A DNA stretch of 64,000 bases. Source: Mycobacterium sp. Lineage in GTDB: Bacteria; Actinomycetota; Actinomycetes; Mycobacteriales; Mycobacteriaceae. The notes beneath the pieces were generated by a model, which saw nothing but the letters and a program-made list of their open reading frames with translations, ran no database searches and had not been told where the DNA came from. Of this stretch, positions 17,484 through 63,168 are shown piece by piece (positions within the stretch are counted from its first letter, which is position 1; each line of letters starts with the position of its first letter). The DNA lies in NCBI GenBank assembly GCA_035996225.1, contig DASYJS010000370.1:3917-67916 (forward strand), given 5' to 3'. The translations under genes and the position numbers were made by a program.

Positions 17484-17519
17484 GACTTTCCTCTCCACAC
17501 AGTGGCGCAGCCGAATCGG

Positions 17520-17843
17520 CTAGCCGACACACTCGGTTGTCGTCGCCAGCAGCCGCGGAATCGGCGCGGGATCCAGCAACAGTGCGTCGGACATCGTCAG
17601 CTGGCCGGCGTTGGAAATCATGTTGTCCAAGACGGCCTGCAGGTCATCGCCCTCGATCTCGTAGATCGCGACATAGGGGCCGTCGCCGTTGACCGGACGC
17701 AGCCGCCGCGCCGAGACGAATCCGTCGAGAGCCACGAGTTCACCCAGATGGACTTCGTCGTACCAGGTGTTGTACTCCTGCTCACGGTCGGGCGAACTGG
17801 GTCGACTCTCAACGAGGATGATGCCCTTGGCCATCGTCGTCAC
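17520..17843 (-). CDS. Small ferredoxin-fold protein (EthD/Dabb-like), hypothetical
   Basis: 107 aa; ILVESRPSSPDREQEYNTWYDEVHLGEL resembles EthD/DUF4286-type proteins. Assignment is tentative. Confidence 0.6.
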   Translation of the reverse strand: MTTMAKGIILVESRPSSPDREQEYNTWYDEVHLGELVALDGFVSARRLRPVNGDGPYVAIYEIEGDDLQAVLDNMISNAGQLTMSDALLLDPAPIPRLLATTTECVG

Positions 17844-17855
17844 CTCTCTTGTGAC

Positions 17856-18158
17856 TTACTCGTAGCGCACCGTGACCGAATCCGTATCGGGTACGCCCTG
17901 GCACGTCAGAATGTAGCCGTCGGCGACCTCGTCGTCGTCGAGAGCGTCGTTAATCCGCATGGTCGCGTGGCCGCTCTCGAGGCGGGCCATGCAGGTGCCA
18001 CAGTTGCCGGCCTCGCAATTGAACGGGGGATCCAGGCCGGCTCGCCGTGCGCTTTCCAGGAGCGTTTCGCCAGGAACCAGGGCCACCGCCGCCTTCTTGC
18101 GTTCCAGGTAGATCGTCACCTGGCCGGGCTCGGCACCGTTTGGTGTGGGATCTGTCAC
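17856..18158 (-). CDS. Plant-type [2Fe-2S] ferredoxin
   Basis: CEAGNCGTCMARL...YILTCQG is the C-x4-C-x2-C...C motif. GTG at 18158 with GAGGAG 9 nt upstream; in-frame GTGs up to 18221 are possible. The rest of the 264-aa track ORF is antisense to the acyl-CoA synthetase gene. Confidence 0.8.
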   Translation of the reverse strand: MTDPTPNGAEPGQVTIYLERKKAAVALVPGETLLESARRAGLDPPFNCEAGNCGTCMARLESGHATMRINDALDDDEVADGYILTCQGVPDTDSVTVRYE

Positions 18159-18255
18159 CCTCGGGGTCTCCTCGATGATCGCGGTGACCGCCGCGCGCTG
18201 GAACGCTTCGGGTTCCACCACGGCCGCCCCGCCCGTACTTGCGTTCTTCAGTATA

Positions 18256-18270
18256 GAGAATACTATTCTC
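18256..18270. promoter_or_regulatory. Palindromic operator candidate GAGAATAcTATTCTC (site 1 of 4)
   Basis: Perfect 7-1-7 palindrome in the divergent intergenic region between the ferredoxin gene (-) and the acyl-CoA synthetase gene (+). Identical to the site at 57883. Confidence 0.5.
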
Positions 18271-18338: not shown

Positions 18339-19754
18339 GTGACCGAGCCGGCCGCGCTCGTGTTCGAGGAACGGCAATTTAGCCTGCCTCAGCTCGACAC
18401 GCTGGCCAACAGTCTGGCCGCGGCCCTGGGCAAACACGGCGTCGCTGCGGGACAGCGGGTTGCCCTCATGTCCTCCAACCGGCCGGAGTTCGTGGCCGTC
18501 CTGCTGGGAATCTGGCGGCTGGGCGCGACGGCGGTGCTCATCAGCCCCGCGTGGAAGCACGACGAGGTCGACCACGCGCTGGCGCTGACCAACCCCAGCC
18601 ACGCGGTCGGGGACCACCCGGTGCTGGCCGGCCTCATGCCGATGCTGCACCTGGACGAACCGGTCACCCCCGCGGAGCCGATATCGATGTCCGCGCTACC
18701 GCGTGCCGACGCGGTGCTGGTGTTCAGTTCGGGCACGACTGGTTTACCCAAGGCCGTCCGGCACACCCACGCAGCGTTGGTCGAGGCCGTGCGGCACTGG
18801 CGCGACGCGTTGCAGCTGACGCGGCGCGACCGAATTCAGGTCGCCACACCGCCGTCGCACATCCTGGGTCTGCTTAATATCGTTACGGCGTTGCGCACCG
18901 GCGCCCGGCTGCGACTGCACCCTCGCTTCGACATCGAGCAGATGTTGCATCACATCGAAAAGGACCGCATCACAGTCGAAATGGCGGTCGCGCCGATCGC
19001 CCTGGCCATCGCCTCACACCCGACGCTGGAGTCATACGACTTGTCGTCACTGCGCTTCATCATGTGGGGCGCAACGCCGGTCAGCGCCAGCGTCGCCGAG
19101 ACCGTGACCCGGCGCACCGGCGTCGGGTGGGTTCCGGCCTACGGCACCACGGAACTGCCTGTGATTGCGTGCAATCCGCTTGATGGGGCCCGGCTCGACA
19201 CGGTCGGGCGTTCGGTGCCAGGGGTAGACCTGCGGGTGGCCTCGCTGACGACCGGTCAGCCGGTCGGCCCGGGAGAGGTCGGTGAGATCCAGGCGCGGTC
19301 GACATCGCTGATGGCCGGTTACCTGCCGGCCGAGGCGAGCGGCGAGGCGATGTGCGACGGCTGGTATCGCACCGGGGACGTGGGCTGGCTCGACACCGAT
19401 GGTTGGCTGCGGATCACCGACCGCCTCAAAGAGATGATCAAGGTACGCGGGTTTCAAGTCGCACCAGCCGAAATCGAGACGGTGTTACACGGTCATCCCG
19501 CCGTCAAAGACTGTGCGGTGTTCGGAGTTCCGGACGGGATCAACGGTGAAGCCGTCGTTGCCGCGGTCGCCACGCGCGCCCCTTTTGACGCGGAGGCGGT
19601 CGCCGCCGACCTTACCGCCCGGGTGGACGAGAAGCTGGCGTCCTACAAACACCTGAGCCGCATCGTGTTCGTGCCGGAGATTCCTCGCCTGCCGTCGGGC
19701 AAGGTGCTGCGCCGAGTGCTGAAGGAGCGCTATGGATGTACGTCTCACAGCTGA
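18339..19754 (+). CDS. AMP-dependent acyl-CoA synthetase/ligase (FadD-like)
   Basis: FSSGTTGLPKAV (AMP-binding motif I), YGTTE, YRTGDVG, PSGKVLRR. Confidence 0.88.
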   Translation: MTEPAALVFEERQFSLPQLDTLANSLAAALGKHGVAAGQRVALMSSNRPEFVAVLLGIWRLGATAVLISPAWKHDEVDHALALTNPSHAVGDHPVLAGLMPMLHLDEPVTPAEPISMSALPRADAVLVFSSGTTGLPKAVRHTHAALVEAVRHWRDALQLTRRDRIQVATPPSHILGLLNIVTALRTGARLRLHPRFDIEQMLHHIEKDRITVEMAVAPIALAIASHPTLESYDLSSLRFIMWGATPVSASVAETVTRRTGVGWVPAYGTTELPVIACNPLDGARLDTVGRSVPGVDLRVASLTTGQPVGPGEVGEIQARSTSLMAGYLPAEASGEAMCDGWYRTGDVGWLDTDGWLRITDRLKEMIKVRGFQVAPAEIETVLHGHPAVKDCAVFGVPDGINGEAVVAAVATRAPFDAEAVAADLTARVDEKLASYKHLSRIVFVPEIPRLPSGKVLRRVLKERYGCTSHS

Positions 19755-20640
19755 ACAGCAACAGTTACGGGACGCCGCCGCGAAGCTGGCCGATGATCTT
19801 GGGCCGGCTGCGGTTCAGGACCTTGACGACGACCGCCGAATCGCGCGTCTGGACAGGCAGATTGAGGCGACGGGCTGGAGATCACTGCGCTCCGACGGAG
19901 CCTCCGGTGTCGAAGTCGCAATCGTCGCTGAGGAATTCGGACGGCGATTGGTCGACACACCGTTCCTCGGTCCCGTGCTGGCCGACGACCTGGCACATCG
20001 CATCGGTGCCGATCCCGGCGCTGCGGCGACCGTAGCGGTCGATGATCGCGCGATCGACGCGCGAGGCGCCCGGCGCGCGTTGTTGCTGTCCGGCAACACG
20101 GTGCTGGGCGCGGACTTGGGCGCCGTGCGCGACGGTGCCGATTTGACGAGAGCCGAAGTCGAATTGGTGGGGTCGCCCGAGACACTCGGTGAGCTGCCGG
20201 ACGAAGCGGCGGCACGATGGCAGGCGCTCGCGCTGGTCGCCACATCGGCGGATCTTGTCGGAATTGCCCGGGGTGCGCAGGCCGTCGCCTGCGACTACGC
20301 GAAAATTCGCGAGCAGTACGGCAAGCAGATCGGCTCGTATCAAGCCATCGCTCACCTGCTGGCCGAAAGCCTTGCCCTAATTGAAGGTTCGGTCAGCGTG
20401 CTGCGGCATGCCGCGTGGGGTGTGGACGAACTTGATCCGGCGCAAGCCATCCGGGCCGCCCAGATCGCGAAGGTCTACTGCGCGCGTGCCACCAGAACGG
20501 TCTGTGAGACCGCGGTTCAGGTACACGGCGGCATCGGTAATACCTGGGAGTGCATTGTCCATGTCTATCTGCGCCGCGCCCTGACGTCGACAGAGCTGTG
20601 GCCCGTCACGCTGAAGGAGATCGATCTTGGACTTTCGTGA
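19732..20640 (+). CDS. Acyl-CoA dehydrogenase-like protein, short 'beta'-type subunit of a heteromeric ACAD
   Basis: 302 aa; lacks the QGFSEPxxGSD region but keeps C-terminal ACAD helices (FGKQIGSYQAIAHLLAE, VQVHGGIG). Overlaps neighbours on both sides. Confidence 0.78.
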   Translation: MDVRLTAEQQQLRDAAAKLADDLGPAAVQDLDDDRRIARLDRQIEATGWRSLRSDGASGVEVAIVAEEFGRRLVDTPFLGPVLADDLAHRIGADPGAAATVAVDDRAIDARGARRALLLSGNTVLGADLGAVRDGADLTRAEVELVGSPETLGELPDEAAARWQALALVATSADLVGIARGAQAVACDYAKIREQYGKQIGSYQAIAHLLAESLALIEGSVSVLRHAAWGVDELDPAQAIRAAQIAKVYCARATRTVCETAVQVHGGIGNTWECIVHVYLRRALTSTELWPVTLKEIDLGLS

Positions 20641-21724
20641 CTCGCCTGAAGAGGCGGCCTTCCGGGAGAGGCTGCGAAATTGGCTTTCGGCCCACGCCAA
20701 GGAATTTTCCGGCTCAGGCGACGAGTATTGGGCGCGCATGGCCGACTGGCATCGCGCCCTGTACGAGAACGGCTTTTTCGGCCTGTCCTGGCCACGCGAT
20801 TGGGGCGGACAGGACCTGGCGCCGGTGTACGACGTCATCGTTGACGAGGAGTTGGTGCGTGCCGGCGCCCCGCCGCGCCCCAGCGTCGGCTATCTGGTGT
20901 ACGGCATCGGCGCGCACGGCGGCGACGAGCTCCGGAAACGCTTCCTGCCCGGCATCATCAACGGCACCGAGCGCTGGTGCCAGGGCTTCAGCGAACCCGG
21001 CGCGGGCTCGGATCTGGCGTCGCTGACCACGACCGCCACCCGGGACGGCGACAACTACGTCGTGCACGGGCACAAGATCTGGACCAGCTACTCCGATGTG
21101 GCCGACTGGTGTCTAGTGCTCGCCCGCACCGATCCCGACGCCAAGCGGCACCGGGGTCTGTCGGCGTTCGTGATCGCGATGAAACAGCCTGGCGTGCAAC
21201 AGCGTCCGCTGCGCATGATGAACGGGGTCACCAACGAGTTCGGACAGGTGTCCTTCGACGGCGCCACGGTGCCGGCGGACCGGATGGTCGGTGCCCCCGG
21301 TGACGGCTGGGCTGTGGCGATGACCGTCGTCGGACACGAGCGCGAGCCCTCAACGCTCGGCTATGCCGCGCGCTACGGCAAGCTTGTCCGAGAGCTGTTG
21401 GCGCACTGGGTTGATCGCGAAGGTCCGGTTCCTGAAGAGCTGGCGTGGGCGGCGGTTCAGTCAGATATGCTGACCCATCACGTGCGGCGTCGGCTGTCCG
21501 AACAGCTGGACGGGGTGTCGCACGGGTCGGAAGGCTCGCTGGACAAGTTGCTGATGACCTGGGTCGAACAATCCGTGGGGCACGCCGCATTGGCAGTCAC
21601 CGGGACCCGCGACCCAGATCTGCTGGGCGCCTACCTATACAGCCGCGCGCAAAGCGTCATGGGCGGGACATCACAGATACAGAAAAACATCATCGCTTCG
21701 CGCATCTTGGGATTGGGAGTTTGA
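20627..21724 (+). CDS. Acyl-CoA dehydrogenase, 'alpha'-type subunit
   Basis: WCQGFSEPGAGSDLASL, HGHKIWTSY, GGTSQIQKNIIA. TTG start with GAAGGAGA 6 nt upstream. Confidence 0.88.
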   Translation: MDFRDSPEEAAFRERLRNWLSAHAKEFSGSGDEYWARMADWHRALYENGFFGLSWPRDWGGQDLAPVYDVIVDEELVRAGAPPRPSVGYLVYGIGAHGGDELRKRFLPGIINGTERWCQGFSEPGAGSDLASLTTTATRDGDNYVVHGHKIWTSYSDVADWCLVLARTDPDAKRHRGLSAFVIAMKQPGVQQRPLRMMNGVTNEFGQVSFDGATVPADRMVGAPGDGWAVAMTVVGHEREPSTLGYAARYGKLVRELLAHWVDREGPVPEELAWAAVQSDMLTHHVRRRLSEQLDGVSHGSEGSLDKLLMTWVEQSVGHAALAVTGTRDPDLLGAYLYSRAQSVMGGTSQIQKNIIASRILGLGV

Positions 21725-21725
21725 C

Positions 21726-22493
21726 GTGTACGACATGCCTGCTGAAATCGATGTCCGTGCCGACGGCGCGTTACGGATCATCACGCTGAACCGGCCGGAT
21801 TCGCTGAACTCGGTCAACGACGACCTACACTCCGGGCTTGCCCGGATATGGCAGCGATTGACCGATGACCCCACAGCCCGCGCGGCGGTGATCACCGGTG
21901 CCGGCAGGGCGTTTTCGGCGGGCGGTGATTTCGGGTATCTCAAGGAATTGTCCGGCGATGCCGACCTGCGGGCCAAGACCATCCGAGACGGACGCGAGAT
22001 CGTTCTGGGCATGGCCCGGTGCCGAATTCCCGTGATAGCGGCCGTCAATGGGCCCGCCGTCGGCCTGGGCTGCAGCCTCGTCGCGCTGAGCGACATCGTC
22101 TACATCGCCGAAGACGCCTACCTCGCCGACCCGCATGTGCAGGTGGGGCTGGTAGCCGCCGATGGCGGGCCGTTGACCTGGCCGCTGCATATCAGCCTGC
22201 TGCTGGCAAAGGAATACGCGCTGACCGGCACCCGAATCAAAGCGCCACGAGCCGTCGAACTTGGCCTGGCCAACCACGTCGCAGCCGATCCCGTCGCGGA
22301 GGCAATCGCTTGTGCCAAAAAGATTTTGGAGCTGCCCCAGCAGGCCGTGGAGAGCACCAAGCGGGTGCTCAACATTCATCTGGAGCGTGCAGTGCTCGCC
22401 ACCCTGGACTATGCCCTCTCGGCCGAAAGCCAGTCATTCGTGACCGAGGACTTCCGGGCGATCGTCGAGAAGCTGACCGCCGGTAAGGACTGA
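21726..22493 (+). CDS. Enoyl-CoA hydratase/isomerase (crotonase) family
   Basis: ITLNRPDSLNSV, ITGAGRAFSAGGDF, AAVNGPAVGLGC. Confidence 0.88.
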   Translation: MYDMPAEIDVRADGALRIITLNRPDSLNSVNDDLHSGLARIWQRLTDDPTARAAVITGAGRAFSAGGDFGYLKELSGDADLRAKTIRDGREIVLGMARCRIPVIAAVNGPAVGLGCSLVALSDIVYIAEDAYLADPHVQVGLVAADGGPLTWPLHISLLLAKEYALTGTRIKAPRAVELGLANHVAADPVAEAIACAKKILELPQQAVESTKRVLNIHLERAVLATLDYALSAESQSFVTEDFRAIVEKLTAGKD

Positions 22494-24027: not shown

Positions 24028-24042
24028 GAGAATATTGTTCTC
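24028..24042. promoter_or_regulatory. Palindromic operator candidate GAGAATAtTGTTCTC (site 2 of 4)
   Basis: One mismatch to the perfect palindrome. In the divergent pip/meaB intergenic region, 105 nt before the meaB start. Confidence 0.45.
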
Positions 24043-54085: not shown

Positions 54086-54937
54086 TTAGTGGCTCCACCC
54101 CTCGGCGGCCTGGTCGTCGAAGGCGCGGTCGATGCGTTCGAACCGGCGCTTGACCGAATTCCGGGCCGCCTGGTGCGGCAGGATGTACAACCGGTTGGCC
54201 AGAATCGCGTCGGCTGTCAGCCGCGCCACGTCGTCCACCGACACTTTTTCATCCTGAGTCGGCGGAAGCGGTCCGAACGCACTCGTCACGTCGGGCGCTG
54301 ACGCGAGTCCGTAATCCGCGCCGCGGATGCGTTCGGAGTTGGAGACCAGCTTCGTTTCGACGACCATCGGACACAGCACCGAGACGCCGATGCCGTTGTC
54401 CTTGACCTCGCGGGCCAGCGTCTCGGCCAGGCCGACAACGCCATATTTGGCAACGCCGTATGCCCCCAGGCCGGCGTTGGGTACCAGTCCGGCAAAGGAC
54501 GCGGTAAAGGCGATGTGGCCGCCGGTGCCCTGCGCGATCAACTTCGGCACGAACGCCTCCACGGCGTGGATCGAACCCCACAAATCGATATCGATCACCC
54601 ACCGCCAGTCCTCGTGCGTCATATCCACGAGCGGACCCGCGACAACGATGCCGGCGTTGCTGAAAACGACGTCGACCTGGCCGAGCAGGCGGAACGCCTC
54701 ATCCGCGAGATGAACCATCTCCTCGAGATGCCGCACGTCACACGTCACGCCGTGGGCGTCGACCCCCTCGGCCTTCAGGTGCGCCACGGCCCGTTCCAAC
54801 GTGGGCTTGTCGACGTCGGCCAGTACCACCCGGGCTCCGCGGCGGGCGAGTTCGGTGGCGGTGGCCAACCCGATGCCGCCTGCACCGCCGGTAATCACGG
54901 CACCGCGCCCCGCGAAATCAGATAGGAATCCGTCCAT
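54086..54937 (-). CDS. Short-chain dehydrogenase/reductase
   Basis: ITGGAGGIG, SNAG, YGVAKYG. ATG at 54937. Confidence 0.88.
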   Translation of the reverse strand: MDGFLSDFAGRGAVITGGAGGIGLATATELARRGARVVLADVDKPTLERAVAHLKAEGVDAHGVTCDVRHLEEMVHLADEAFRLLGQVDVVFSNAGIVVAGPLVDMTHEDWRWVIDIDLWGSIHAVEAFVPKLIAQGTGGHIAFTASFAGLVPNAGLGAYGVAKYGVVGLAETLAREVKDNGIGVSVLCPMVVETKLVSNSERIRGADYGLASAPDVTSAFGPLPPTQDEKVSVDDVARLTADAILANRLYILPHQAARNSVKRRFERIDRAFDDQAAEGWSH

Positions 54938-55054
54938 AGATTCCGAGCGTATTACCCGTTGCCCCGACGATTTGATCCCGGTACAACCGAGCATCCAACC
55001 AAGTATGAGCGCCTCATATAGATAGGGCACTAACTATTAGGGTACTATATAAAT

Positions 55055-55546
55055 GTGGCCACCCTGACTGCACGTGAGATTGATCCGCTTGCCCTGGAAC
55101 ACCAGGTGTGCTTCGCGCTGGCGACCACCAACCGGGCGGTCTTGGCGGTGTACCGCCCTCTGCTGGAGCCGCTCGGCCTGACCCATCCGCAATACCTGGT
55201 GATGCTGGCACTGTGGGACCACCGCAAGAACCCCGCGGCGGAGCAGTCGCCGCTGTCGGTCAAGCAGATTGCCGCCGCATTGCAGATGGATTCGGCCACG
55301 CTCTCGCCGATGCTCAAGCGCTTGGAGGGGCTGGGCCTGATCACTCGTGCCAAGAAGGCCACCGACGAGCGCACGACCGATGTGACGCTCACCGAGCGCG
55401 GAATCTCCTTGCGCAAGCGGGCACTTGAGATTCCGCCCGCCGTCGTGGCACGTCTGGGTGTCGAGCTGGCCGAACTGGAGAACCTGCATCGGGTCCTCAC
55501 CCGCATCAACGCGGCCGCTTTGGCGGCCGGCGCCTTGCAATCCTGA
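55055..55546 (+). CDS. MarR-family regulator, OhrR-like (redox-sensing Cys)
   Basis: LEHQVCFALATTNRAVLAVYRPLLEPLGLTHPQYLVMLALW matches the OhrR N-terminal Cys motif. GTG start immediately after TATATAAAT, so possibly leaderless. Confidence 0.82.
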   Translation: MATLTAREIDPLALEHQVCFALATTNRAVLAVYRPLLEPLGLTHPQYLVMLALWDHRKNPAAEQSPLSVKQIAAALQMDSATLSPMLKRLEGLGLITRAKKATDERTTDVTLTERGISLRKRALEIPPAVVARLGVELAELENLHRVLTRINAAALAAGALQS

Positions 55547-55564
55547 CAACCCTGAGGAGCTACC

Positions 55565-55981
55565 ATGACCGCCGCGAAACCCAATCTCTGGCAGTACATC
55601 GGCTATTCCTACGGCCGGCGCCTGCCTAACTCGATGCGCAGCTGGGTCGCGCGCGATCTCGCCGGCGACGGAGCCATCCGCCGGCACATGCTCCGGTGGG
55701 CGATACCGCCCTTGCTCGTCCTCGCTCCGCTGTGGCTGCTGCCCGCCTCGATCTACGTGCACACCGAGATGACAGCGCCGCTCTACTTCTGGGCGCTGCT
55801 GATATCCCTTGCCCTGAACAAGGTCTGGCGTCGGCACCGACTGGCAGACCATGGATTAGACCCGAACCTGGTCGACGTGATCAACCGCCGGAAACAGGCA
55901 CGGATGCACGAGGACTACATCCGTCGTTACGGGCCGCGACCCGAATCGGCGGAATGGCAGTCCAACAGCAGCCCGTTCTAG
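55565..55981 (+). CDS. Small membrane protein (DUF5313-like)
   Basis: 138 aa, two TM segments (PPLLVLAPLWLLPASIYV, LYFWALLISLAL). Family name from memory. Confidence 0.62.
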   Translation: MTAAKPNLWQYIGYSYGRRLPNSMRSWVARDLAGDGAIRRHMLRWAIPPLLVLAPLWLLPASIYVHTEMTAPLYFWALLISLALNKVWRRHRLADHGLDPNLVDVINRRKQARMHEDYIRRYGPRPESAEWQSNSSPF

Positions 55982-55984
55982 GGG

Positions 55985-56824
55985 CTACTTCAGACAGCTG
56001 CCCGCATCGATGGGCAGTGTCACGCCGGTGATGTAGCGCGCCTCGTCGGAGACGAAGAACAGCACCGCATTGCTGATGTCGATGGGGTCGACCCACGGAA
56101 TCGGCAGCGTGTGGAACATCTGACAGATCGGCGCCATGTCGTCGGGCCCGGGATTTTCCAGGTCTGGACGGAACATCTTCCACGTGCCCTCATTCATGAT
56201 CATCCCGGTGCTCACATGGGTGGGATGCACGGAGTTGACCCGAATCATGTGCTGTCCCAGTTCGACGGCGAAGGAGCGCATAATGCCCACCACGCCGTGC
56301 TTAGCGGCGACGTAGTTGCCGCAGTGAGGGTAGGCCTTGAGGCCGCCGACCGAGCTGGTCAATACAATCGAACCGCCGTTGCCACCCGCAATCAAATGCG
56401 GCACACCGGCTTTCACTGACTTCCACACACCCGACAGGTTGATATCAATCATTTCCTGCCAGTCGTGTTCACTGCATTGGTCCAGAGTGTCGCCACCGTT
56501 GCCGATGCCGGCGTTGGCCACGATGATGTCCAGCCGGCCCAACTGCTCCACACCGGTATCCACCGCGGCCTTCATCGCGTCGTAATCGCGCACGTCGACC
56601 TCGGCCGTGAAGATTCTGCGGTTGTGACTCTTGACGAGATCGGCGGTCTCCGCCAGATCCTCGGGCGTTGCCGCCGGGATGGTGGTGTTCTCCACAATGG
56701 GCTTGCAGACGTCAATCGCGATGATGTCGGCGCCCTCTTGCGCCAACCGCACCGCGTGGCTGCGGCCCTGACCAAGCGCCGCTCCGGTGACGAAAGCAAC
56801 TTTGCCTTCAACACGTCCCGTCAT
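55985..56824 (-). CDS. Mycofactocin-coupled SDR-family oxidoreductase (carveol dehydrogenase-like)
   Basis: MTGRVEGKVAFVTGAALGQGRSHAVRLAQEGADIIAIDVC, YVAAKHG, and the characteristic long insert. ATG at 56824 with GAGG upstream. Confidence 0.83.
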   Translation of the reverse strand: MTGRVEGKVAFVTGAALGQGRSHAVRLAQEGADIIAIDVCKPIVENTTIPAATPEDLAETADLVKSHNRRIFTAEVDVRDYDAMKAAVDTGVEQLGRLDIIVANAGIGNGGDTLDQCSEHDWQEMIDINLSGVWKSVKAGVPHLIAGGNGGSIVLTSSVGGLKAYPHCGNYVAAKHGVVGIMRSFAVELGQHMIRVNSVHPTHVSTGMIMNEGTWKMFRPDLENPGPDDMAPICQMFHTLPIPWVDPIDISNAVLFFVSDEARYITGVTLPIDAGSCLK

Positions 56825-57016
56825 CACTACCTCAATTCCCGATCTGATCCAACCGGCATGTCTCAGCGGAGAACGGCCGGCATCGTGTCTCTCGCAGGAA
56901 CCGCGTGCGCCCCGTTCCCGGGGGAGCGGGGAGGGTGCCGCCACTGAACTCTGTCATCACCCGCCAACGAGTGTCAACGACGAATCCGTTTCGGCTATTT
57001 GCAATTCTATATATTA

Positions 57017-57031
57017 GAGAATCTGATTCTC
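57017..57031. promoter_or_regulatory. Palindromic operator candidate GAGAATCtGATTCTC (site 3 of 4)
   Basis: Perfect 7-1-7 palindrome between the TetR stop (57110) and the SDR start (56824). Confidence 0.45.
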
Positions 57032-57109
57032 AACAGGCAAATCACGTGCGCTATTTGCTCACGTTGGGGGCGAAGCGAAAGGACCGCTCGGGCTTGCCGC
57101 TGATGCGTG

Positions 57110-57847
57110 CTAGCCGACGAATCCGGATGAGCAGAAGTCCCACACCTCGTCGGCGCTGATCGGGTGGATCGTCGCGTCGTCGTTGCCGCCGCTGGACTGC
57201 GCAATGAACATGACCGTCTGCATCGTCATGGCGGCTATCCGGCGTGGATTGAGTCCGGCGCGCAACTTGCCTGCGTCGCAGGCAGCTTCCATGAGCTCGG
57301 TCAGCAACGCCACCAGCGGCGCGTGTGCGATCTTGACCTCGACCGGATGCGTCACCAGCAACCGTGGCGCAAAATCGGTGAACAGCGGGCGCTTGGCCTC
57401 GGGATCCGGACGCGACGCCTCATACAGCAGCTCGACGGCGACCTTCAGCCGCTCGAGCGGATCAGATTGGTTTTCGGTGGCGGCACGGATCTGCTCGGCC
57501 GACCGGCTCAGCGCGTCTTCGAACAACGCAAGCAGCAGCTCGTGCTTACCGTCAAACTGCAGGTAGAAGCTCCGCAGCGACTGACGGGACCGGTCCACGA
57601 CCTCCTGGACGGTAAAGTCCGTGGTGCCTTTTTCGATGATGATGGCCTGCGCCGCGTCAAGGAAGCGCTGAACGCGCTGCGCCGCACGCAGTTTCGCGGT
57701 CTTGATGGATCGCTCGACGGCGCGCTGCTTCCAAGCCGGCTCTTCGATTGGACTGGTCACATACGGCTCGGACGATTGTCGCGAGGGGAGAACATGATTG
57801 GACTCTACCGGAGAACGCCGTGACATCGCTGCGCTCGACCCCCTCAC
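57110..57847 (-). CDS. TetR-family transcriptional regulator (candidate regulator of the GAGAAT palindrome)
   Basis: FLDAAQAIIIEKGTTDFTVQEVVDRSRQSLRSFYLQFDGKHELL HTH. Start uncertain (57847 GTG or 57826 ATG). Confidence 0.85.
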   Translation of the reverse strand: MRGSSAAMSRRSPVESNHVLPSRQSSEPYVTSPIEEPAWKQRAVERSIKTAKLRAAQRVQRFLDAAQAIIIEKGTTDFTVQEVVDRSRQSLRSFYLQFDGKHELLLALFEDALSRSAEQIRAATENQSDPLERLKVAVELLYEASRPDPEAKRPLFTDFAPRLLVTHPVEVKIAHAPLVALLTELMEAACDAGKLRAGLNPRRIAAMTMQTVMFIAQSSGGNDDATIHPISADEVWDFCSSGFVG

Positions 57848-57882
57848 GGACCATGTGTCGGAGATTGTAACTTGCTCGCTAC

Positions 57883-57897
57883 GAGAATACTATTCTC
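57883..57897. promoter_or_regulatory. Palindromic operator candidate GAGAATAcTATTCTC (site 4 of 4)
   Basis: Perfect palindrome, identical to site 1. Lies 36 nt upstream of the TetR ORF start and 106 nt upstream of the divergent ACAD gene. Confidence 0.5.
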
Positions 57898-58002
57898 CTA
57901 CACGTGTGTATAGAAGCAGAATTGCAAGAGTGAACCGCGCGGTCGGCGGAAACCCGCATCTACTGAAGGTCCACGAGCGCTAGCGAATTGCAGGGGAGTG
58001 CT

Positions 58003-59190
58003 GTGCAGCTGACCTTTGACGCCGACGTCGAGGAGTTCCGCGCGGAATTCGCGGCTTTCCTCGATGCGAATCTTCCCGACGCGGCGGTGACGGGTGAGCG
58101 GCCGCGGTCGAGTTCGGACATTCCGGAGTGGGCCCGCAGCTGGCAACGGCTCCTGTTCGACAGCGGGTGGCTGCTGCCCGGAAATCCGCCGGAGTTCGGT
58201 GGACGTAACGCCACGCTGTTGCAGCAATACGTGTACCTCGAAGAGTTATCGCGGCACCGGATCTATCAAAGTTTCAATCCGCAGGGCGTGGGCATCATCG
58301 CCGCGTCGCTGCTGTCGTTCGGCACGCCGGAGCAGAAGCGGCGATGGGCGGTGCCGATTCTGCGCGCGGAGATGACTGCGTCGCTGGGTATGAGCGAACC
58401 CGGTGCGGGCTCGGATCTCGCCTCACTGAAGACACGCGCGGTACTCTCGTCTGATTCAGAAGGCGATCACTTCGTCGTCAACGGGCAGAAGGTGTGGACA
58501 TCGGGTGCTCATCACGCCGATGTGTTGTTGACGTTCGTGCGTACCGATCCCGAAGCACCAAAACACAAGGGCATCAGCGCCTTACTGATTCCGACAGACA
58601 CGCCCGGTGTGGTCCGACGTCCGTTCGCGTCGGTGTCCGACATCGAAGACGTCGACTTCAATGAGGTCTTTTTCACCGACGCGCGGGTGCCGGCCGAGAA
58701 CTTGGTGGGGGAGCTCAACGCGGGATGGCGAGTCGCGACCGGTTCGCTCGGCCACGAACGCGCCATGCTGTGGCTTGATTACGCCGACATGCTGCACGCG
58801 CTGAGCGCCGAGTCCAGCCCATCGGGACCCGTGCAACGCGATCGCTACGCCACGCTGGTGATGGATTGTCACGCGTTGCGGCTAATGGGGTCGGCGACTT
58901 TGGCCAAAGCCGCGCGCGGTGAAGAGGACGTCCCCGCCCAGTCAGTGCTCAAGCTGCTCGGTTCGGAGGCAATGCAACGCGCCTGTGAGGACGCGCTCAA
59001 TGCCAAGGGCGGCGACGGACTCGTGTTGCGCGGGGTCACCGCGCCGTTCGCCCCGCTCAATCTGGACAGCCACTACGGCAGCTGGTTTGACCGGTACACG
59101 CGCACCTTCGCGGCGACCATCGCCGGCGGGACTTCCGAAATTCAGCGCAACATCATTGCCGAACGAGTCCTTGGACTGCCCCGCGGTTAG
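58003..59190 (+). CDS. Acyl-CoA dehydrogenase
   Basis: LGMSEPGAGSDLASL, NGQKVWTSG, GGTSEIQRNIIA. GTG at 58003 after GGGGAG. Confidence 0.88.
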   Translation: MQLTFDADVEEFRAEFAAFLDANLPDAAVTGERPRSSSDIPEWARSWQRLLFDSGWLLPGNPPEFGGRNATLLQQYVYLEELSRHRIYQSFNPQGVGIIAASLLSFGTPEQKRRWAVPILRAEMTASLGMSEPGAGSDLASLKTRAVLSSDSEGDHFVVNGQKVWTSGAHHADVLLTFVRTDPEAPKHKGISALLIPTDTPGVVRRPFASVSDIEDVDFNEVFFTDARVPAENLVGELNAGWRVATGSLGHERAMLWLDYADMLHALSAESSPSGPVQRDRYATLVMDCHALRLMGSATLAKAARGEEDVPAQSVLKLLGSEAMQRACEDALNAKGGDGLVLRGVTAPFAPLNLDSHYGSWFDRYTRTFAATIAGGTSEIQRNIIAERVLGLPRG

Positions 59191-59567: not shown

Positions 59568-60410
59568 TTACAGCTGCGCCAGCCGTGGCGCAGATCCCTT
59601 GGCCCGCAACACTGCTCCGGCCTCCCCGGTCAATTCCCGTGTGCTGCCGAGCAGGGTGTCCAGAATCAGCGACCGTTTGATGTGGCAATGCAGCGGGTGT
59701 TCGGCCGTGAAGCCGATGCCGCCCAGCACCTGCTGGCAGTGGCGTGCCGTGGTCAGCGCCGCCTGGCCGGCCGCCGCTTTGGCCAGCAGGCTGGCCAGGT
59801 CATCCGGATCGTCGGATGCCGAGGCGGCGACCTGCAGGGTCGCCTCGGCGCCCTCGATCGCGACCAGTGCCTCGGCCAGTCGGTGCCGGATCGCCTGAAA
59901 CGAACTGATGTGGCGGCCGAACTGGACACGATCCAGGGCATGCTGGCGCGCCAGTGCAAGCATTGCGCGGCTGGCGCCGACCAGCCACCAGCCCAGGGCC
60001 CGCCGCCCGGCAGCAAGCCCGGCTTGCGGAACTGGGTTTCCTTCTGCCACACGATGTATCGGCAGCTCACCGTCGAGCGCTGAACTGGAAGCGTCGTTGC
60101 GCTCCCACACCACCCAGGAGCCTCCCGCGAACGGCAGTGGGGTGGTACCGCCCGGTGCCGCTCCGGTCGCGTGCAGCACGACATCGTTGAGCACGGGGGC
60201 GTGCGTGCCGGTCTCGCCGAGCAGTCGAAACACCAAAGGAATTGCGAAATCAGGTATTTCGTCCAGCATGTCGAGCCAGCCGAGGTCCGTCAACGCCGCA
60301 TCGAGCTTAGGGCCCGAGGCCAGGGAAGGATCGGTCATTGCGGTGCGTACCGACTCGGTCAGCAGCTGCAGTTCCTCGGAGTCTGCGGCTGCGTTTGTTG
60401 AAAGATCCAC
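59568..60410 (-). CDS. Acyl-CoA dehydrogenase-like 'beta'-type subunit
   Basis: C-terminal ACAD helices (FGRHISSFQAIRHRLAE, QQVLGGIGFT) without the N-terminal FAD/acyl motif. GTG at 60410, 4 nt after the upstream TAA. Confidence 0.75.
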   Translation of the reverse strand: MDLSTNAAADSEELQLLTESVRTAMTDPSLASGPKLDAALTDLGWLDMLDEIPDFAIPLVFRLLGETGTHAPVLNDVVLHATGAAPGGTTPLPFAGGSWVVWERNDASSSALDGELPIHRVAEGNPVPQAGLAAGRRALGWWLVGASRAMLALARQHALDRVQFGRHISSFQAIRHRLAEALVAIEGAEATLQVAASASDDPDDLASLLAKAAAGQAALTTARHCQQVLGGIGFTAEHPLHCHIKRSLILDTLLGSTRELTGEAGAVLRAKGSAPRLAQL

Positions 60411-60414
60411 GGCT

Positions 60415-61518
60415 TTAGTCCTTCCCGAGGTCGAGTAGCCGGCGAGCGATGATGTTGCGCTGAATCTCGGCGGTGCCACCGTAAATGGTCGACGCGCGCG
60501 AGTACAGGTACTCCGAACGCCACGGTGTGTCGTCGAGCTCGAGGACGCCGGGCAGCAGATCGCGGACGGTGTCGTAAAGCCGCTGCTCGGCCGAGGCCAG
60601 CAGCACCTTGTCAACGGAGGTGTCAGGGCCGAGCCGTGCTCCGTCGCGCAGCCGGTATTGGGTGGCGCGGGACCGGCAGCGCAGCGTGTGCAGCGCGAGA
60701 TAGGCTGTGCCAAGCTCGAATTCGCTATGAACGTCGGTTTGGACACCGGATGCCTCTGCGATGAGCTCGTCGAATCGGGAGTAGAGGTAGGCGATCCGCT
60801 GCCAAAAGCAGGTGGACCGCTCGTAGGGGAGCAGGTCCATCGCCAGCCGCCAGCCGTCCCCCGGTTGGCCGAGCATCCGGCTGCTCGGGATCACCACATC
60901 GTCGAAGTACACCTCGCAGAACTCGTCGACCCCGTGCATGGTGCGAAGCGGCCGAACGGTGATTCCCGGGGTGTCGAGGTCGACAAAGAATGCGGTGATT
61001 CCGTCATGACCGGGCGCGGTGCGGGTGAGCAGGACGCAGCGGGTCGAGAACTGCGCGAAGCTGGTCCAGACCTTCTGCCCGTTGACGACCCAGTTGTCAC
61101 CTTGCTGCGCGGCGCGGGTGGCCAGCGATGCCAGGTCACTGCCGGAGCCCGGCTCGGAAAAGCCTTGGCACCATTGCTCTTGGCCGCTCAGCAGTCGCGG
61201 CACCATTTCGGCGGCCAGTTCTGCCGGGGCGTAATCGATCATCGTGGGTGCAAGCACCTCGAGCATCGAGTACGGGCCCGGCTCGGCGAGGCGGCGACCG
61301 ACGACCTCTTCGCCGACGATCGCGCGAAGCAGCGCGGGCCCACCCAATCCGCCGACTTCTTTCGCCCAGCCGTACCGCATCCAATCGGCGTCATACAGGG
61401 CCCGGCTGACGCGGGCGAATTGCTGCATATGACCCTGCAGCGAGTGGTCGGGTCCGGGCGTTAAGTCGTTCTCGTCGAGCCACTTACGCAGACCCGCCCG
61501 GAACTCCTCGACATTCAC
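60415..61518 (-). CDS. Acyl-CoA dehydrogenase 'alpha'-type subunit
   Basis: WCQGFSEPGSGSDLASL, NGQKVWTSF, GGTAEIQRNIIA. Confidence 0.88.
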   Translation of the reverse strand: MNVEEFRAGLRKWLDENDLTPGPDHSLQGHMQQFARVSRALYDADWMRYGWAKEVGGLGGPALLRAIVGEEVVGRRLAEPGPYSMLEVLAPTMIDYAPAELAAEMVPRLLSGQEQWCQGFSEPGSGSDLASLATRAAQQGDNWVVNGQKVWTSFAQFSTRCVLLTRTAPGHDGITAFFVDLDTPGITVRPLRTMHGVDEFCEVYFDDVVIPSSRMLGQPGDGWRLAMDLLPYERSTCFWQRIAYLYSRFDELIAEASGVQTDVHSEFELGTAYLALHTLRCRSRATQYRLRDGARLGPDTSVDKVLLASAEQRLYDTVRDLLPGVLELDDTPWRSEYLYSRASTIYGGTAEIQRNIIARRLLDLGKD

Positions 61519-61964
61519 GGGGTGGGACGGCCGATGGCGTGCGGGCGCCCCGAGTCGTGCACCCCGCTACGGCGAATGAACGTCATCGCACGGGTCTTCA
61601 GCCGCCATCCGTCGGCGGTCCGGGAGTAGGTGTCGCGGTAGTAGCCGATCCGCATGTCGTGAGTGGAGCCGTCGATAAAGCAGAGCGGTTGCGTACCGCT
61701 TGCCGAATCGCCGTCGATGTCTTCGACCAGGGCAGTTCCGGTGAGGAACAAGCCCTTTGGTGCGGCCGCGACCAGTTCCGGGAACCGGTCCAACTTGTAC
61801 GTGGAGCCAAATGCACTGTAGGTCCCGTCGGGTGTGAACACACCGATGAGACCGCCGATGTCTTCCTGGGTGATGGTGACGGCGTAGCGGGCGAGCAACT
61901 GCTGAATCTCGACCAGATCGTCAGTTCTGGTTGGGCCGCTCTTAGACTGATCGGGTGTCGACAT
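61515..61964 (-). CDS. SnoaL-like / NTF2-fold protein
   Basis: DLVEIQQLLARYAVTITQEDIGGLIGVFTPDGTY is typical SnoaL_4. 4-nt overlap with the ACAD gene. Confidence 0.8.
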   Translation of the reverse strand: MSTPDQSKSGPTRTDDLVEIQQLLARYAVTITQEDIGGLIGVFTPDGTYSAFGSTYKLDRFPELVAAAPKGLFLTGTALVEDIDGDSASGTQPLCFIDGSTHDMRIGYYRDTYSRTADGWRLKTRAMTFIRRSGVHDSGRPHAIGRPTP

Positions 61965-63168
61965 AGACCTTGCCGCCTTTCATGACAAAGCTCACGTGTT
62001 GGGTAACGGTGATGTCTTCCAACGGGTTTCCCGGTACCGCGATGATATCGGCGAGTTGTCCCTGTGCGAGCCGCCCCCGGTCGGTCGAGTTGATGAGCTC
62101 AGCCGCGGTCACCGTGGCCGCCCGCAGCACGGCCAACGGCGGCATGCCCCAGTCGACCAGGGTGACAAGCTCGTCGGCGTTGCGCCCGTGCGGTATTGCG
62201 GGTGCGTCGGTGCCGACCGCGATCTTCACGCCGGCTTTGTAAGCGGCCAGTATCGAGGTGCGTGACTTCGGGAACATCTCGGCGGCCTTGGCTTGGAGTT
62301 CGGGTGCAGCGTGCGAAACATCCATTGCCTCTGCAAGGCGTCGGGTGCTCACCAGGAAGGTGCCGTGCTCCACCATCATCGCGATCGCGTCGTCATCGAC
62401 CAGGAAACCGTGCTCGATGCAATCGATGCCGGCCTCGACGGCATGCTTGACCGCCTCGGCGCCGTGCGTGTGCGCGGCGACGCGCAGCCCGCGCCGGTGC
62501 GCCTCGTCGACGATCGCGCGTAGCTCTTCGTCCGAATAGTGTTGTGCACCAGGCGGACCGGTCAGTGACATCACTCCACCCGAGCAGCAGACCTTGATCA
62601 GCTCAGCGCCATGTTTGATCTGGTATCGCACCGCCTTGCGGATCTCGTCGACTCCGTTGGCGATGCCTTCCTCGACCGTCAGGTCCAGCGCATGCGGCGC
62701 GAACGCCGCGAACATTGTCGGGTCCAGGTGGCCGCCGGTGGGCGTGATGGCGTGGCCGGCCGGCACCACTCGCGGCCCGTCGATCCAGCCGGCGTCAATA
62801 GCCTTGCCCAGCGCGACGTCCAACAGGTAGCCGCCCGTCTTGACGAACAGGCCGAGATTGCGCACCGTGGTGAATCCAGCGCGCAGCGTGCGACGGGCAT
62901 TGCCGACCGCGCGCAGCACCCGGGTCGGCGGATCATCTTGAACCTGGGACAGCCCGGGCTTCTCCCCGCGCCCGCCCATCAGGAGGTTGACCTCCATGTC
63001 CATCAGCCCCGGCAGCAGGATCGCGTCGCCGAGATCGATCACGTCACTCTCGGAACCGTTACCGTCACCGACACCGACGATCCGGTCGTTCTCGATCCGC
63101 AGAATGCCGGGCCGAACGATCTCGCCGGCGTCGATGTCGAGCAGCCCGGCGGCCTTGAGCGTCAGCAC
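61942..63168 (-). CDS. Amidohydrolase-superfamily protein with a substituted HxH motif
   Basis: LLPGLMDMEVNL sits where LLPGLID.HVHL is expected. The other ligands are present (KVCCSGG, AAHTHG, CIEHG, VGTDA). Confidence 0.85.
   Translation of the reverse strand: MLTLKAAGLLDIDAGEIVRPGILRIENDRIVGVGDGNGSESDVIDLGDAILLPGLMDMEVNLLMGGRGEKPGLSQVQDDPPTRVLRAVGNARRTLRAGFTTVRNLGLFVKTGGYLLDVALGKAIDAGWIDGPRVVPAGHAITPTGGHLDPTMFAAFAPHALDLTVEEGIANGVDEIRKAVRYQIKHGAELIKVCCSGGVMSLTGPPGAQHYSDEELRAIVDEAHRRGLRVAAHTHGAEAVKHAVEAGIDCIEHGFLVDDDAIAMMVEHGTFLVSTRRLAEAMDVSHAAPELQAKAAEMFPKSRTSILAAYKAGVKIAVGTDAPAIPHGRNADELVTLVDWGMPPLAVLRAATVTAAELINSTDRGRLAQGQLADIIAVPGNPLEDITVTQHVSFVMKGGKVYVDTRSV

What the first reader, a model, noticed from the sequence alone, without database searches (positions are those of the whole stretch)
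57017..57897. Two more copies of the GAGAAT palindrome bracket a TetR gene, the likely regulator of a dispersed regulon
GAGAATAcTATTCTC (57883-57897) is identical to the site at 18256. It lies 36 nt upstream of the TetR ORF and is divergent to an ACAD gene. GAGAATCtGATTCTC (57017-57031) lies between the TetR stop and a mycofactocin-type SDR. That makes four sites in 64 kb, all intergenic, one in autoregulatory position. The inferred regulon is: B12-mutase chaperone, acyl-CoA ligase, heteromeric ACAD, crotonase, ferredoxin, amidohydrolase, ACAD and mycofactocin-coupled SDR. It looks like an uncharacterised lipid or terpenoid-type catabolic pathway controlled by one TetR.
Basis: partly seen in the sequence, partly recalled or inferred. 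Interest (0 to 1): 0.62.

Follow-up and report, generated by a model that had tools for sequence, protein, structure and literature searches.

The report
Conserved TetR repressor and its operator
The 15-base palindrome GAGAAT-N3-ATTCTC is very likely the binding site of the TetR-family repressor whose gene it brackets, and this undescribed switch, kept in most mycobacteria and six related genera, controls scattered operons that probably break down bulky terpenoid- or steroid-like acids.

Summary
GAGAATNNNATTCTC occurs exactly at 18256, 57017 and 57883, and with one mismatch at 24028; 0.01 exact matches are expected by chance. All four sites are intergenic.

The whole genome has 7 exact sites against 0.05 expected. 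All 7 lie in 5' regions.

The link to the TetR gene (57110-57847, minus strand) is strongly supported in silico:
- Both flanking sites are kept in 20 of 20 orthologous loci of the genus.
- In 80 named species or MAGs, 79 keep the upstream site and 74 the downstream site.
- The sites are also kept in four loci from other genera.
- Among near-complete genomes, 36 of 37 with the TetR have exact sites, and 33 of 34 without it have none.

The operator overlaps promoter elements, which points to repression.

The paired acyl-CoA dehydrogenases (ACADs) are of the steroid type. So the regulon looks like catabolism of a polycyclic terpenoid or steroid-like acid through CoA esters.

No paper in the searchable library contains the operator, and all databases call the protein a generic TetR/AcrR. 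It is a new member of a known kind, a KstR-like regulon. DNA binding, the ligand and the substrate are untested.

The parts
57883..57897 (.). Operator O1, GAGAATACTATTCTC, in the divergent TetR/ACAD promoter region (autoregulatory position)
   Evidence: Exact match. An exact site is kept at the same place in 78 of 80 named loci, 36-45 nt before the longest ORF. It is also kept in 20/20 loci of the genus and in loci of other genera.
57017..57031 (.). Operator O2, GAGAATCTGATTCTC, on the promoter of the mycofactocin-type SDR downstream of the TetR gene
   Evidence: Exact match. On the minus strand a promoter-like site has -35 TTGAGA (57033-57028, overlapping the operator arm), an 18-nt spacer and -10 TAGAAT (57009-57004), matching 10 of 12 positions. 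The site is kept in 74/80 loci while its distance to the TetR stop varies from 10 to 138 nt.
57110..57847 (-). TetR-family regulator gene. The longest ORF gives 245 aa; the likely start is the ATG at 57826 or the GTG at 57760.
   Evidence: PF00440 scores 33 bits against a cut-off of 24. No specific NCBIfam model is passed. Residues 35-115 (the DNA-binding domain) are almost all invariant in 17 orthologues of 76-89% identity.
57988..59190 (+). Acyl-CoA dehydrogenase divergent from the TetR gene
   Evidence: The best NCBIfam match is the pimC-like large subunit, below its cut-off. It is divergent from the TetR gene in 74 of 80 oriented loci.
55985..56826 (-). Mycofactocin-coupled SDR, the first gene after O2 (the longest ORF runs to 56944)
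   Evidence: TIGR03971 scores 382.6 bits against a cut-off of 300. It lies downstream of the TetR gene on the same strand in 72 of 80 oriented loci.
54086..55852 (-). Probable rest of the SDR operon: a 271-aa protein with no family match (55037-55852) and a second SDR (54086-55030)
   Evidence: Same strand with short gaps. PRK05876 matches at E = 6.6e-161, and the 271-aa protein has no Pfam or NCBIfam match. Co-transcription is inferred, not shown.
18256..18270 (.). Operator O3, between the ferredoxin / 107-aa / DitZ-like operon (minus strand) and the fadD-ACADbeta-ACADalpha-ECH operon (plus strand)
   Evidence: Exact match. The fadD orthologue sits next to a site in 5 of 5 genomes compared. 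TATACT follows the operator directly on the minus strand.
16218..18221 (-). Operon of a 2Fe-2S ferredoxin (about 17856-18221), a 107-aa protein (17520-17843) and a DitZ-like diiron hydroxylase (16218-17498)
   Evidence: Fer2 and Amidohydro_2 domains. The 426-aa protein matches PDB 8UYR (DitZ) at E = 2e-133 over its full length, with the DDH, SEGG and DYPHSD motifs identical.
18339..22493 (+). Operon of an acyl-CoA ligase, ACAD beta (C-terminal domain only), ACAD alpha and an enoyl-CoA hydratase
   Evidence: Pfam matches. The best solved relatives of ACAD alpha are Tcur3483 (6WY8/6WY9) and 4X28, which I recall as the M. tuberculosis ChsE4-ChsE5 pair; I recall both as steroid-type alpha2beta2 enzymes.
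24028..24042 (.). Operator O4 (one mismatch), between an alpha/beta hydrolase (23032-23904, minus strand) and MeaB (24147-25040, plus strand)
   Evidence: The MeaB orthologues of G024 and G022 have an exact site in the same position.
59568..63168 (-). Distal part of a minus-strand operon (ACAD beta, ACAD alpha, a 149-aa protein, a metallo-amidohydrolase). Its head (CMD protein, Rieske oxygenase, 107-aa protein) and its exact operator lie just beyond the window end, at C370:69295, which equals window coordinate 65379.
   Evidence: The operon continuity is inferred from strand and spacing.

Best explanation
GAGAAT-N3-ATTCTC is the operator of the TetR-family protein encoded at 57110-57847. A TetR dimer binds each 15-bp palindrome, which has the same length as the classical tet operator. 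The sites overlap or abut the -35 and -10 elements, so the bound protein blocks RNA polymerase.

The protein represses its own gene together with the divergent ACAD gene (O1). It also represses the downstream mycofactocin-type SDR operon (O2) and at least nine further transcription units elsewhere in the genome.

These units encode:
- four amidohydrolase-related dinuclear oxygenases, two of them DitZ-like;
- ferredoxins and a Rieske oxygenase;
- acyl-CoA ligases, steroid-type alpha2beta2 ACADs and enoyl-CoA hydratases;
- SDRs, CoA-transferases and MeaB;
- probably an Mce-type uptake system.

An inducer is inferred to release the repressor. The most likely inducer is the substrate or a CoA thioester made early in the pathway. 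The pathway is most likely catabolism of a bulky polycyclic terpenoid acid (resin-acid-like) or steroid-like acid through CoA esters.

What is shown: the motif, its enrichment, its promoter positions, its co-occurrence with the TetR, and the identities of the target families. What is inferred: binding, the repressive sign, the ligand and the substrate.
For: Enrichment:
- The window has 3 exact sites against 0.01 expected.
- The genome has 7 exact sites against 0.05 expected. All 7 are intergenic and face gene starts.
- Of 8 one-mismatch sites, 5 are intergenic.

Linkage to the TetR gene:
- Both flanks of the gene carry the motif in 20/20 loci of the genus.
- In 80 named species or MAGs, 79 keep the upstream site and 74 the downstream site.
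- Both flanks carry it in the loci from other genera, L127-L130.
- The downstream site is kept although its distance from the stop codon varies from 10 to 138 nt.

Co-occurrence:
- In the genus, genomes with the TetR have 3-10 exact sites. Complete genomes without it have 0, as do 16 genomes of other families. The reversed-pattern control gives 0 everywhere.
- In six other genera, 21 of 22 genomes with the TetR have 1-13 sites, and 15 of 16 without it have none.
- Combined table: 36/1 against 1/33.

DNA-binding domain: residues 35-115 are almost all invariant across orthologues of 76-89% identity, matching the invariant half-site.

Promoter overlap:
- At O2, the -35 TTGAGA lies inside the operator and the -10 TAGAAT lies 18 nt on.
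- TAATAT follows O2 directly in most species.
- TATACT follows O3 directly.

Targets:
- The same families recur next to sites in five genomes.
- DitZ matches have E = 2e-133 and 2e-108.
- DitZ is a diiron hydroxylase studied with dehydroabietic acid (PMC13154177).
- ACAD alpha is closest to the steroid-type pairs.
- DitZ-like genes are present in 18 of 19 related genomes with the TetR and absent from the complete genomes without it.
Against: No experiment supports it. There are no binding data, and no RNA runs exist for this soil-metagenome genome.

The whole gene supercluster is inherited together. Co-occurrence alone therefore cannot exclude another regulator encoded in that supercluster, and the Fisher test is not corrected for phylogeny.

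Most of the 80 named loci are close relatives (87-94% protein identity). Their whole intergenic regions are conserved, so O1 conservation there is weak evidence on its own.

The structure model is of moderate quality (pLDDT 70, with the HTH region poorly modelled). It gives only generic TetR-fold matches with TM about 0.5, so nothing can be said about the ligand.

At about 55% identity to DitZ the substrate need not be the same. The Rieske oxygenase has no close characterised relative.

Only the O2 promoter matched the sigma-70 consensus scan.
Confidence: 0.8

Rival explanations
1. The palindrome is a real operator, but it is bound by a different regulator encoded within the same co-inherited catabolic supercluster. 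Examples are the IclR-type protein found beside a site in G024 and G018, or a TetR paralogue. The TetR at 57110-57847 would then be only one of the target genes.
For: The targets co-occur with the motif as well as the TetR does; DitZ-like genes are an example. So presence and absence patterns do not single out the TetR. An IclR gene sits next to a site in two genomes. Several genomes carry two or three TetR paralogues.
Against: Only the TetR gene is flanked by sites in every genome examined, including other genera. No IclR gene lies beside a site in this genome. A 15-bp perfect palindrome with a 6-3-6 layout fits one TetR dimer. The TetR DNA-binding domain is as invariant as the half-site.
Confidence: 0.1
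2. The TetR binds the sites but acts as an activator or dual regulator, as FasR does among mycobacterial TetR-like proteins, rather than as a simple repressor.
For: Operator-to-start distances vary widely, from about 2 to 375 nt. Only one promoter could be placed by consensus. FasR is among the weak sequence matches.
Against: Where a promoter can be placed, the operator overlaps the -35 element or directly abuts a -10-like hexamer. That is the arrangement of repression. The FasR model scores 31 bits against a cut-off of 330. Most TetR-family proteins that control catabolic genes are repressors (general knowledge).
Confidence: 0.07
3. The palindromes are not protein-binding operators. They would instead be overlapping divergent -10-like promoter hexamers (GAGAAT on each strand), a small dispersed repeat, or an RNA hairpin.
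For: GAGAAT has the A2 and T6 of a -10 hexamer. Several sites lie in divergent promoter regions.
Against: Sites serving only one gene (57017, C169:12535) keep the perfect palindrome. The central three bases vary freely while the twelve arm bases are invariant. There is no Rfam match and no terminator-like hairpin. The motif is absent from all genomes that lack the TetR, although those genomes use the same promoter types.
Confidence: 0.03

Closest known systems
KstR (Rv3574) and KstR2 (Rv3557c) regulons of Mycobacterium and Rhodococcus
   Same: Each is a TetR-family repressor that regulates itself from a short palindrome. The same palindrome is scattered over many promoters of a large, clustered catabolic gene set: acyl-CoA ligases, alpha2beta2 ACADs, hydratases, oxygenases and Mce transport. 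Each is conserved across mycolic-acid actinobacteria.
   Different: This is a different protein: the KstR model scores 21 bits against a cut-off of 280. The operator differs too: GAGAAT-N3-ATTCTC against TnnAACnnGTTnnA for KstR and AnCAAGnnCTTGnT for KstR2 (both recalled from the literature). The targets are different, being DitZ-type diiron hydroxylases, MeaB and a mycofactocin SDR. No ligand is known.
Classical TetR / tetO
   Same: A dimeric HTH repressor, a 15-bp palindromic operator, divergent promoters including its own, and induction by a small ligand.
   Different: TetR/tetO controls a single efflux gene. This system controls a dispersed regulon of 11 or more sites for catabolic enzymes.
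Acyl-CoA-responsive TetR repressors: FadR of Thermus and Bacillus, AibR, and the activator FasR
   Same: They are the weak best matches by sequence and fold. They control acyl-CoA metabolism, and CoA thioesters are their ligands.
   Different: All scores are far below the family cut-offs: FadR 27 against 200, FasR 31 against 330. TM-scores are about 0.5 on a moderate-quality model. No ligand can be inferred.
The dit (abietane diterpenoid) catabolic clusters of Pseudomonas, Burkholderia and Rhodococcus, which contain DitZ
   Same: Two regulon members are about 50-55% identical to Rhodococcus DitZ (PDB 8UYR). They sit beside a ferredoxin, a CoA ligase and beta-oxidation-type genes.
   Different: I recall the regulator described for the Pseudomonas dit cluster as IclR-type (DitR), not TetR. 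Orthology of the other dit genes was not tested here, and the substrate is unknown.

Membership tests
TetR family of transcriptional regulators (TFTR) | N-terminal TetR-type helix-turn-helix domain (PF00440) | tested here: met
   PF00440 scores 33 bits against a gathering cut-off of 24, over residues 63-108.
TetR family of transcriptional regulators (TFTR) | All-alpha two-domain fold of about nine to ten helices | tested here: met
   The AlphaFold2 model has ten helices and no sheet, with mean pLDDT 70. The HTH region is poorly modelled. Foldseek matches are all TetR-family proteins, with TM about 0.5.
TetR family of transcriptional regulators (TFTR) | Palindromic operator near its own gene, bound by a dimer | tested here: inconclusive
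   The palindrome is present and conserved on both flanks. Binding itself cannot be tested with these tools.
KstR (cholesterol catabolism regulator) | Passes the equivalog model NF033703 | tested here: not met
   21 bits against a cut-off of 280.
FasR / Bacillus-type FadR (acyl-CoA-responsive TetR regulators) | Passes NF053731 or NF053878 | tested here: not met
   31 bits against 330 and 27.1 bits against 200.
DitZ-type amidohydrolase-related dinuclear oxygenase (target gene 16218-17498) | Full-length similarity to a characterised DitZ, with the conserved N- and C-terminal motifs | tested here: met
   E = 2e-133 to PDB 8UYR over residues 7-418. The DDH, SEGG and DYPHSD motifs are identical in the alignment. 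The family is described in PMC13154177.
DitZ-type amidohydrolase-related dinuclear oxygenase (target gene 16218-17498) | Hydroxylates dehydroabietic acid using a diiron cofactor | not testable with these tools
   This needs an enzyme assay. About 55% identity does not fix the substrate.
Mycofactocin-coupled SDR (target gene 55985-56826) | Passes the subfamily model TIGR03971 | tested here: met
   382.6 bits against a cut-off of 300. I did not check whether this genome has the mycofactocin synthesis genes.
Steroid-type alpha2beta2 acyl-CoA dehydrogenase (19732-21724) | Adjacent genes for a full-length alpha subunit and a beta subunit lacking the usual N-terminal and middle domain signatures; closest to the ChsE and IpdE pairs | tested here: met
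   Pfam finds only the C-terminal domain in the 302-aa protein and all three domains in the 365-aa protein, and the two genes overlap. The best PDB matches are 6WY8/6WY9 (Tcur3483) and 4X28. Heteromer formation was not tested.

The most novel reading that the evidence does not exclude
This TetR and its GAGAAT-N3-ATTCTC operator define a third large KstR-like regulon of the mycolic-acid actinobacteria. It is present in about 84% of sampled Mycobacterium species and in at least six further genera. It would be dedicated to the uptake (through an Mce system) and breakdown of plant resin-acid-type diterpenoids or related polycyclic terpenoid acids. The pathway is built around several DitZ-type diiron hydroxylases and steroid-type ACADs, and a pathway CoA thioester would be the inducer. 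That would make diterpenoid catabolism a near-universal trait of environmental mycobacteria.
Probability: 0.3. Interest if true: 0.7.

Novelty: new member of a known kind. Interest (0 to 1): 0.5.

Why it matters
Only a few of the many mycobacterial TetR regulators have a known operator and regulon. KstR and KstR2 showed how much pathway biology one such motif can unlock.

This repressor-operator pair is clean, highly conserved and easy to test. It ties together about a dozen operons of unknown role in most non-tuberculous and soil mycobacteria. These include several members of the newly recognised amidohydrolase-related dinuclear oxygenase superfamily.

It gives a direct route to the substrate: derepress the regulon, or screen for the inducer. 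It also gives a search key (the motif) for annotating the pathway in hundreds of genomes.

Tried and rejected
- **Literature, motif fragment.** A search for the motif fragment together with TetR and mycobacteria gave only primer hits. The one paper I opened, the AcrR structure paper, has an unrelated operator.
- **Literature, exact strings.** Searching exact operator strings found nothing relevant.
- **TetR survey.** The 2015 survey of mycobacterial TetR regulators lists only M. tuberculosis genes, and its motifs are images.
- **M. tuberculosis orthologue.** I tried to decide whether M. tuberculosis has one. No such protein is among the top 120 hits or the clusters I read. A marker search meant to spot tuberculosis-complex genomes among ten small sampled genomes found none. 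The question stays open.
- **RNA evidence.** All runs that hold this sequence are soil-metagenome DNA.
- **RNA elements.** Rfam found nothing in the SDR leader or the intergenic regions.
- **Structure.** The AlphaFold2 model and Foldseek search gave only generic TetR-fold matches and no ligand inference.
- **Two-mismatch sites.** These are at noise level (37 coding, 20 intergenic), so I did not use them to extend the regulon.
- **FdmR.** I considered the fatty-acid catabolism repressor of M. marinum as an identity, but no accessible text allowed a comparison.

Full report
**Observation.** The pattern GAGAATNNNATTCTC occurs exactly at 18256, 57017 and 57883. Shuffles that preserve dinucleotide content predict 0.01 matches. 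Allowing mismatches adds only 24028, which has one mismatch.

The 57883 site lies between the TetR ORF (57110-57847, minus strand) and a divergent ACAD gene (57988-59190). The 57017 site lies 79 nt past the TetR stop and about 190 nt before the ATG of an SDR. That SDR passes the mycofactocin-coupled SDR model, with 382.6 bits against a cut-off of 300.

Orthologues are usually annotated from the ATG at 57826 or the GTG at 57760, and the first 30 or so residues are not conserved.

**Whole genome.** The window is C370:3917-67916 of a 5.55-Mb soil-metagenome Mycobacterium assembly with 65.5% GC. Its closest named relatives are M. simiae and M. shigaense.

The genome holds 7 exact sites against 0.05 expected from base composition. 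All 7 are intergenic and face gene starts. Of 8 one-mismatch sites, 5 are also intergenic. Two-mismatch sites are at noise level.

One exact site lies 1.4 kb beyond the window end. It heads a minus-strand operon that runs back into the window to about 59568.

**Assignment to the TetR.** Four lines of evidence point the same way.

- *Position.* In 20 of 20 orthologous loci of the genus, at 76-94% protein identity, the motif sits on both sides of the gene. In 80 named species and MAGs, 79 keep the upstream site (78 exactly) and 74 keep the downstream site. These include M. triplex, M. gordonae, M. asiaticum, M. colombiense and M. scrofulaceum. The downstream site's distance from the stop codon ranges from 10 to 138 nt, so the palindrome itself is what is conserved. 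Four loci from other genera, at 74-75% identity, also have sites on both flanks.
- *Co-occurrence.* In the first sample, every genome with the TetR has 3-10 exact sites. The three complete genomes of the genus without it have none, as do 16 genomes of other families. The reversed-pattern control is zero everywhere. In six further genera of the family, 21 of 22 genomes with the TetR have 1-13 sites, and 15 of 16 without it have none. Among near-complete genomes the table is 36/1 against 1/33, with Fisher p = 6e-18. That p-value is not corrected for shared ancestry.
- *DNA-binding domain.* Residues 35-115 are almost all invariant in 17 orthologues, in step with the invariant half-site.
- *Geometry.* A perfect 6-3-6 palindrome of 15 bp is what one TetR dimer binds.

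The main caveat is that the targets are inherited together with the regulator. Co-occurrence therefore cannot by itself exclude another regulator in the same supercluster. The universal position of the sites around this gene is what favours the TetR.

**Mode of action.** At O2 the consensus scan finds a promoter on the SDR strand. Its -35 TTGAGA lies inside the operator arm and its -10 TAGAAT lies 18 nt further on, matching 10 of 12 positions. In most species the operator is directly followed by TAATAT. At O3 the operator is directly followed by TATACT toward the ferredoxin gene.

An operator over the -35 element and the spacer means promoter occlusion, that is, repression. No transcription data exist for this organism, so the sign of regulation is inferred.

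**What is regulated.** Next to sites in this genome are:
- a ferredoxin, a 107-aa protein and an Amidohydro_2 protein, divergent from fadD-ACADbeta-ACADalpha-ECH;
- an alpha/beta hydrolase, divergent from MeaB;
- the TetR gene, divergent from an ACAD;
- the mycofactocin SDR operon;
- a CMD protein, a Rieske oxygenase and following genes, divergent from Amidohydro_2-ACAD-ECH;
- an Amidohydro_2 protein followed by fadD;
- an ACADbeta-ACADalpha pair;
- a fourth Amidohydro_2 protein;
- an APH-like kinase, an SDR and an ACAD;
- through weaker sites, a CoA-transferase III gene followed by yrbEA, yrbEB and mce.

The same families recur beside sites in four other genomes. The fadD operon and the TetR gene recur in 5 of 5 genomes. 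MeaB, three Amidohydro_2 families, an ACAD pair and an SDR each recur in 3 of 5. In complete genomes the sites cluster within roughly 150-300 kb around the TetR gene. The ACAD / TetR / SDR gene order is kept in about three quarters of 99 loci.

**The "amidohydrolases".** The 426-aa protein at 16218-17498 matches PDB 8UYR, named DitZ, at E = 2e-133 over its full length. The alignment shows identical DDH, SEGG and DYPHSD motifs. A second regulon member matches at 2e-108. A third matches the unnamed TIM-barrel protein 4DZI and PtmU3.

A 2026 JACS paper (PMC13154177) describes DitZ as a diiron-dependent diterpenoid hydroxylase. It was studied with dehydroabietic acid and belongs to the amidohydrolase-related dinuclear oxygenase superfamily, together with PtmU3. 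The ACAD alpha subunit is closest to Tcur3483 and to the chain of PDB entry 4X28, which I recall as steroid-type alpha2beta2 enzymes that take bulky acyl-CoAs.

DitZ-like genes are present in 18 of the 19 related genomes that have the TetR, and absent from the complete genomes that lack it. Together this points to catabolism of a polycyclic terpenoid or steroid-like acid through CoA esters. The substrate is not established: 55% identity does not fix it, and the Rieske oxygenase has no close characterised relative.

**Comparison with known systems.** The protein passes only the generic TetR N-terminal model. It fails the KstR, FasR, FadR, BetI and other specific models by wide margins. Its nearest solved relatives are weak matches to FadR-type TetR proteins, at E about 1e-6.

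The AlphaFold2 model (pLDDT 70) gives only generic TetR-fold matches. Every database name for the protein is "TetR/AcrR family". No paper in the searchable library contains the operator string. The 2015 survey of mycobacterial TetR motifs covers only M. tuberculosis genes.

In architecture and logic this is a KstR-like system. By membership it is neither KstR nor KstR2.

An earlier agent in this scan found the same palindrome in another genome and proposed an unlinked TetR clade as its binder. The present window supplies that regulator with its flanking sites. My cross-genus searches agree with the spread that agent proposed.

**Distribution.** The TetR is present in 127 of 151 sampled genomes of the genus. 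Many of the genomes that lack it are small, at 3.3-4.6 Mb. It is also present in 6 of 31 other genera of the family. I could not determine whether M. tuberculosis has it.

**Verdict.** It is a new, well-defined member of a known kind of system. The immediate tests are binding assays and a deletion mutant in a harmless laboratory species.

Noticed in passing
L022-L025 (G017, G002, G011, G022), about 11-32 nt upstream of the TetR match: In the most divergent TetR clade of the genus, the GAGAAT-type site next to the gene is followed 6 nt later by a second perfect palindrome, GAGAGTAGTACTCTC. It may be a variant operator or a second dimer site.
   Followed up: no
G048, G116, G119, G157, G197, G297, G309: Some genomes carry two or three paralogues of this TetR at 59-77% identity. 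Several lie in open frames of 376-392 aa, which suggests long N-terminal extensions or fusions.
   Followed up: no
G000 contig C424:1548-1738, outside the window: Two degenerate copies of the palindrome lie between an SDR-ferredoxin pair and a CoA-transferase III / yrbEA / yrbEB / mce operon. An Mce-type lipid uptake system may therefore belong to the regulon.
   Followed up: partly
window 57009-56998 (minus strand) and 57912-57921 (plus strand): Both promoters flanking the TetR gene share the string AGAATTGCAA, 7 to 19 nt after the operator. It is probably a -10 element (T/CAGAAT) plus the transcription start region.
   Followed up: partly
window 56827-57016: The mycofactocin-type SDR has a leader of roughly 170 nt between its predicted promoter and its ATG. 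No Rfam family matches it.
   Followed up: partly
window 55037-55852 (minus strand): A 271-aa protein between the two SDR genes has no Pfam or NCBIfam match. It is found downstream of the TetR gene in only 16 of 99 related loci.
   Followed up: partly
window 17520-17843 (minus strand) and L004:1122-1445 (minus strand): Two 107-aa proteins with no Pfam match each sit inside an oxygenase operon of the regulon. One is next to the DitZ-like gene and the other next to the Rieske oxygenase.
   Followed up: no
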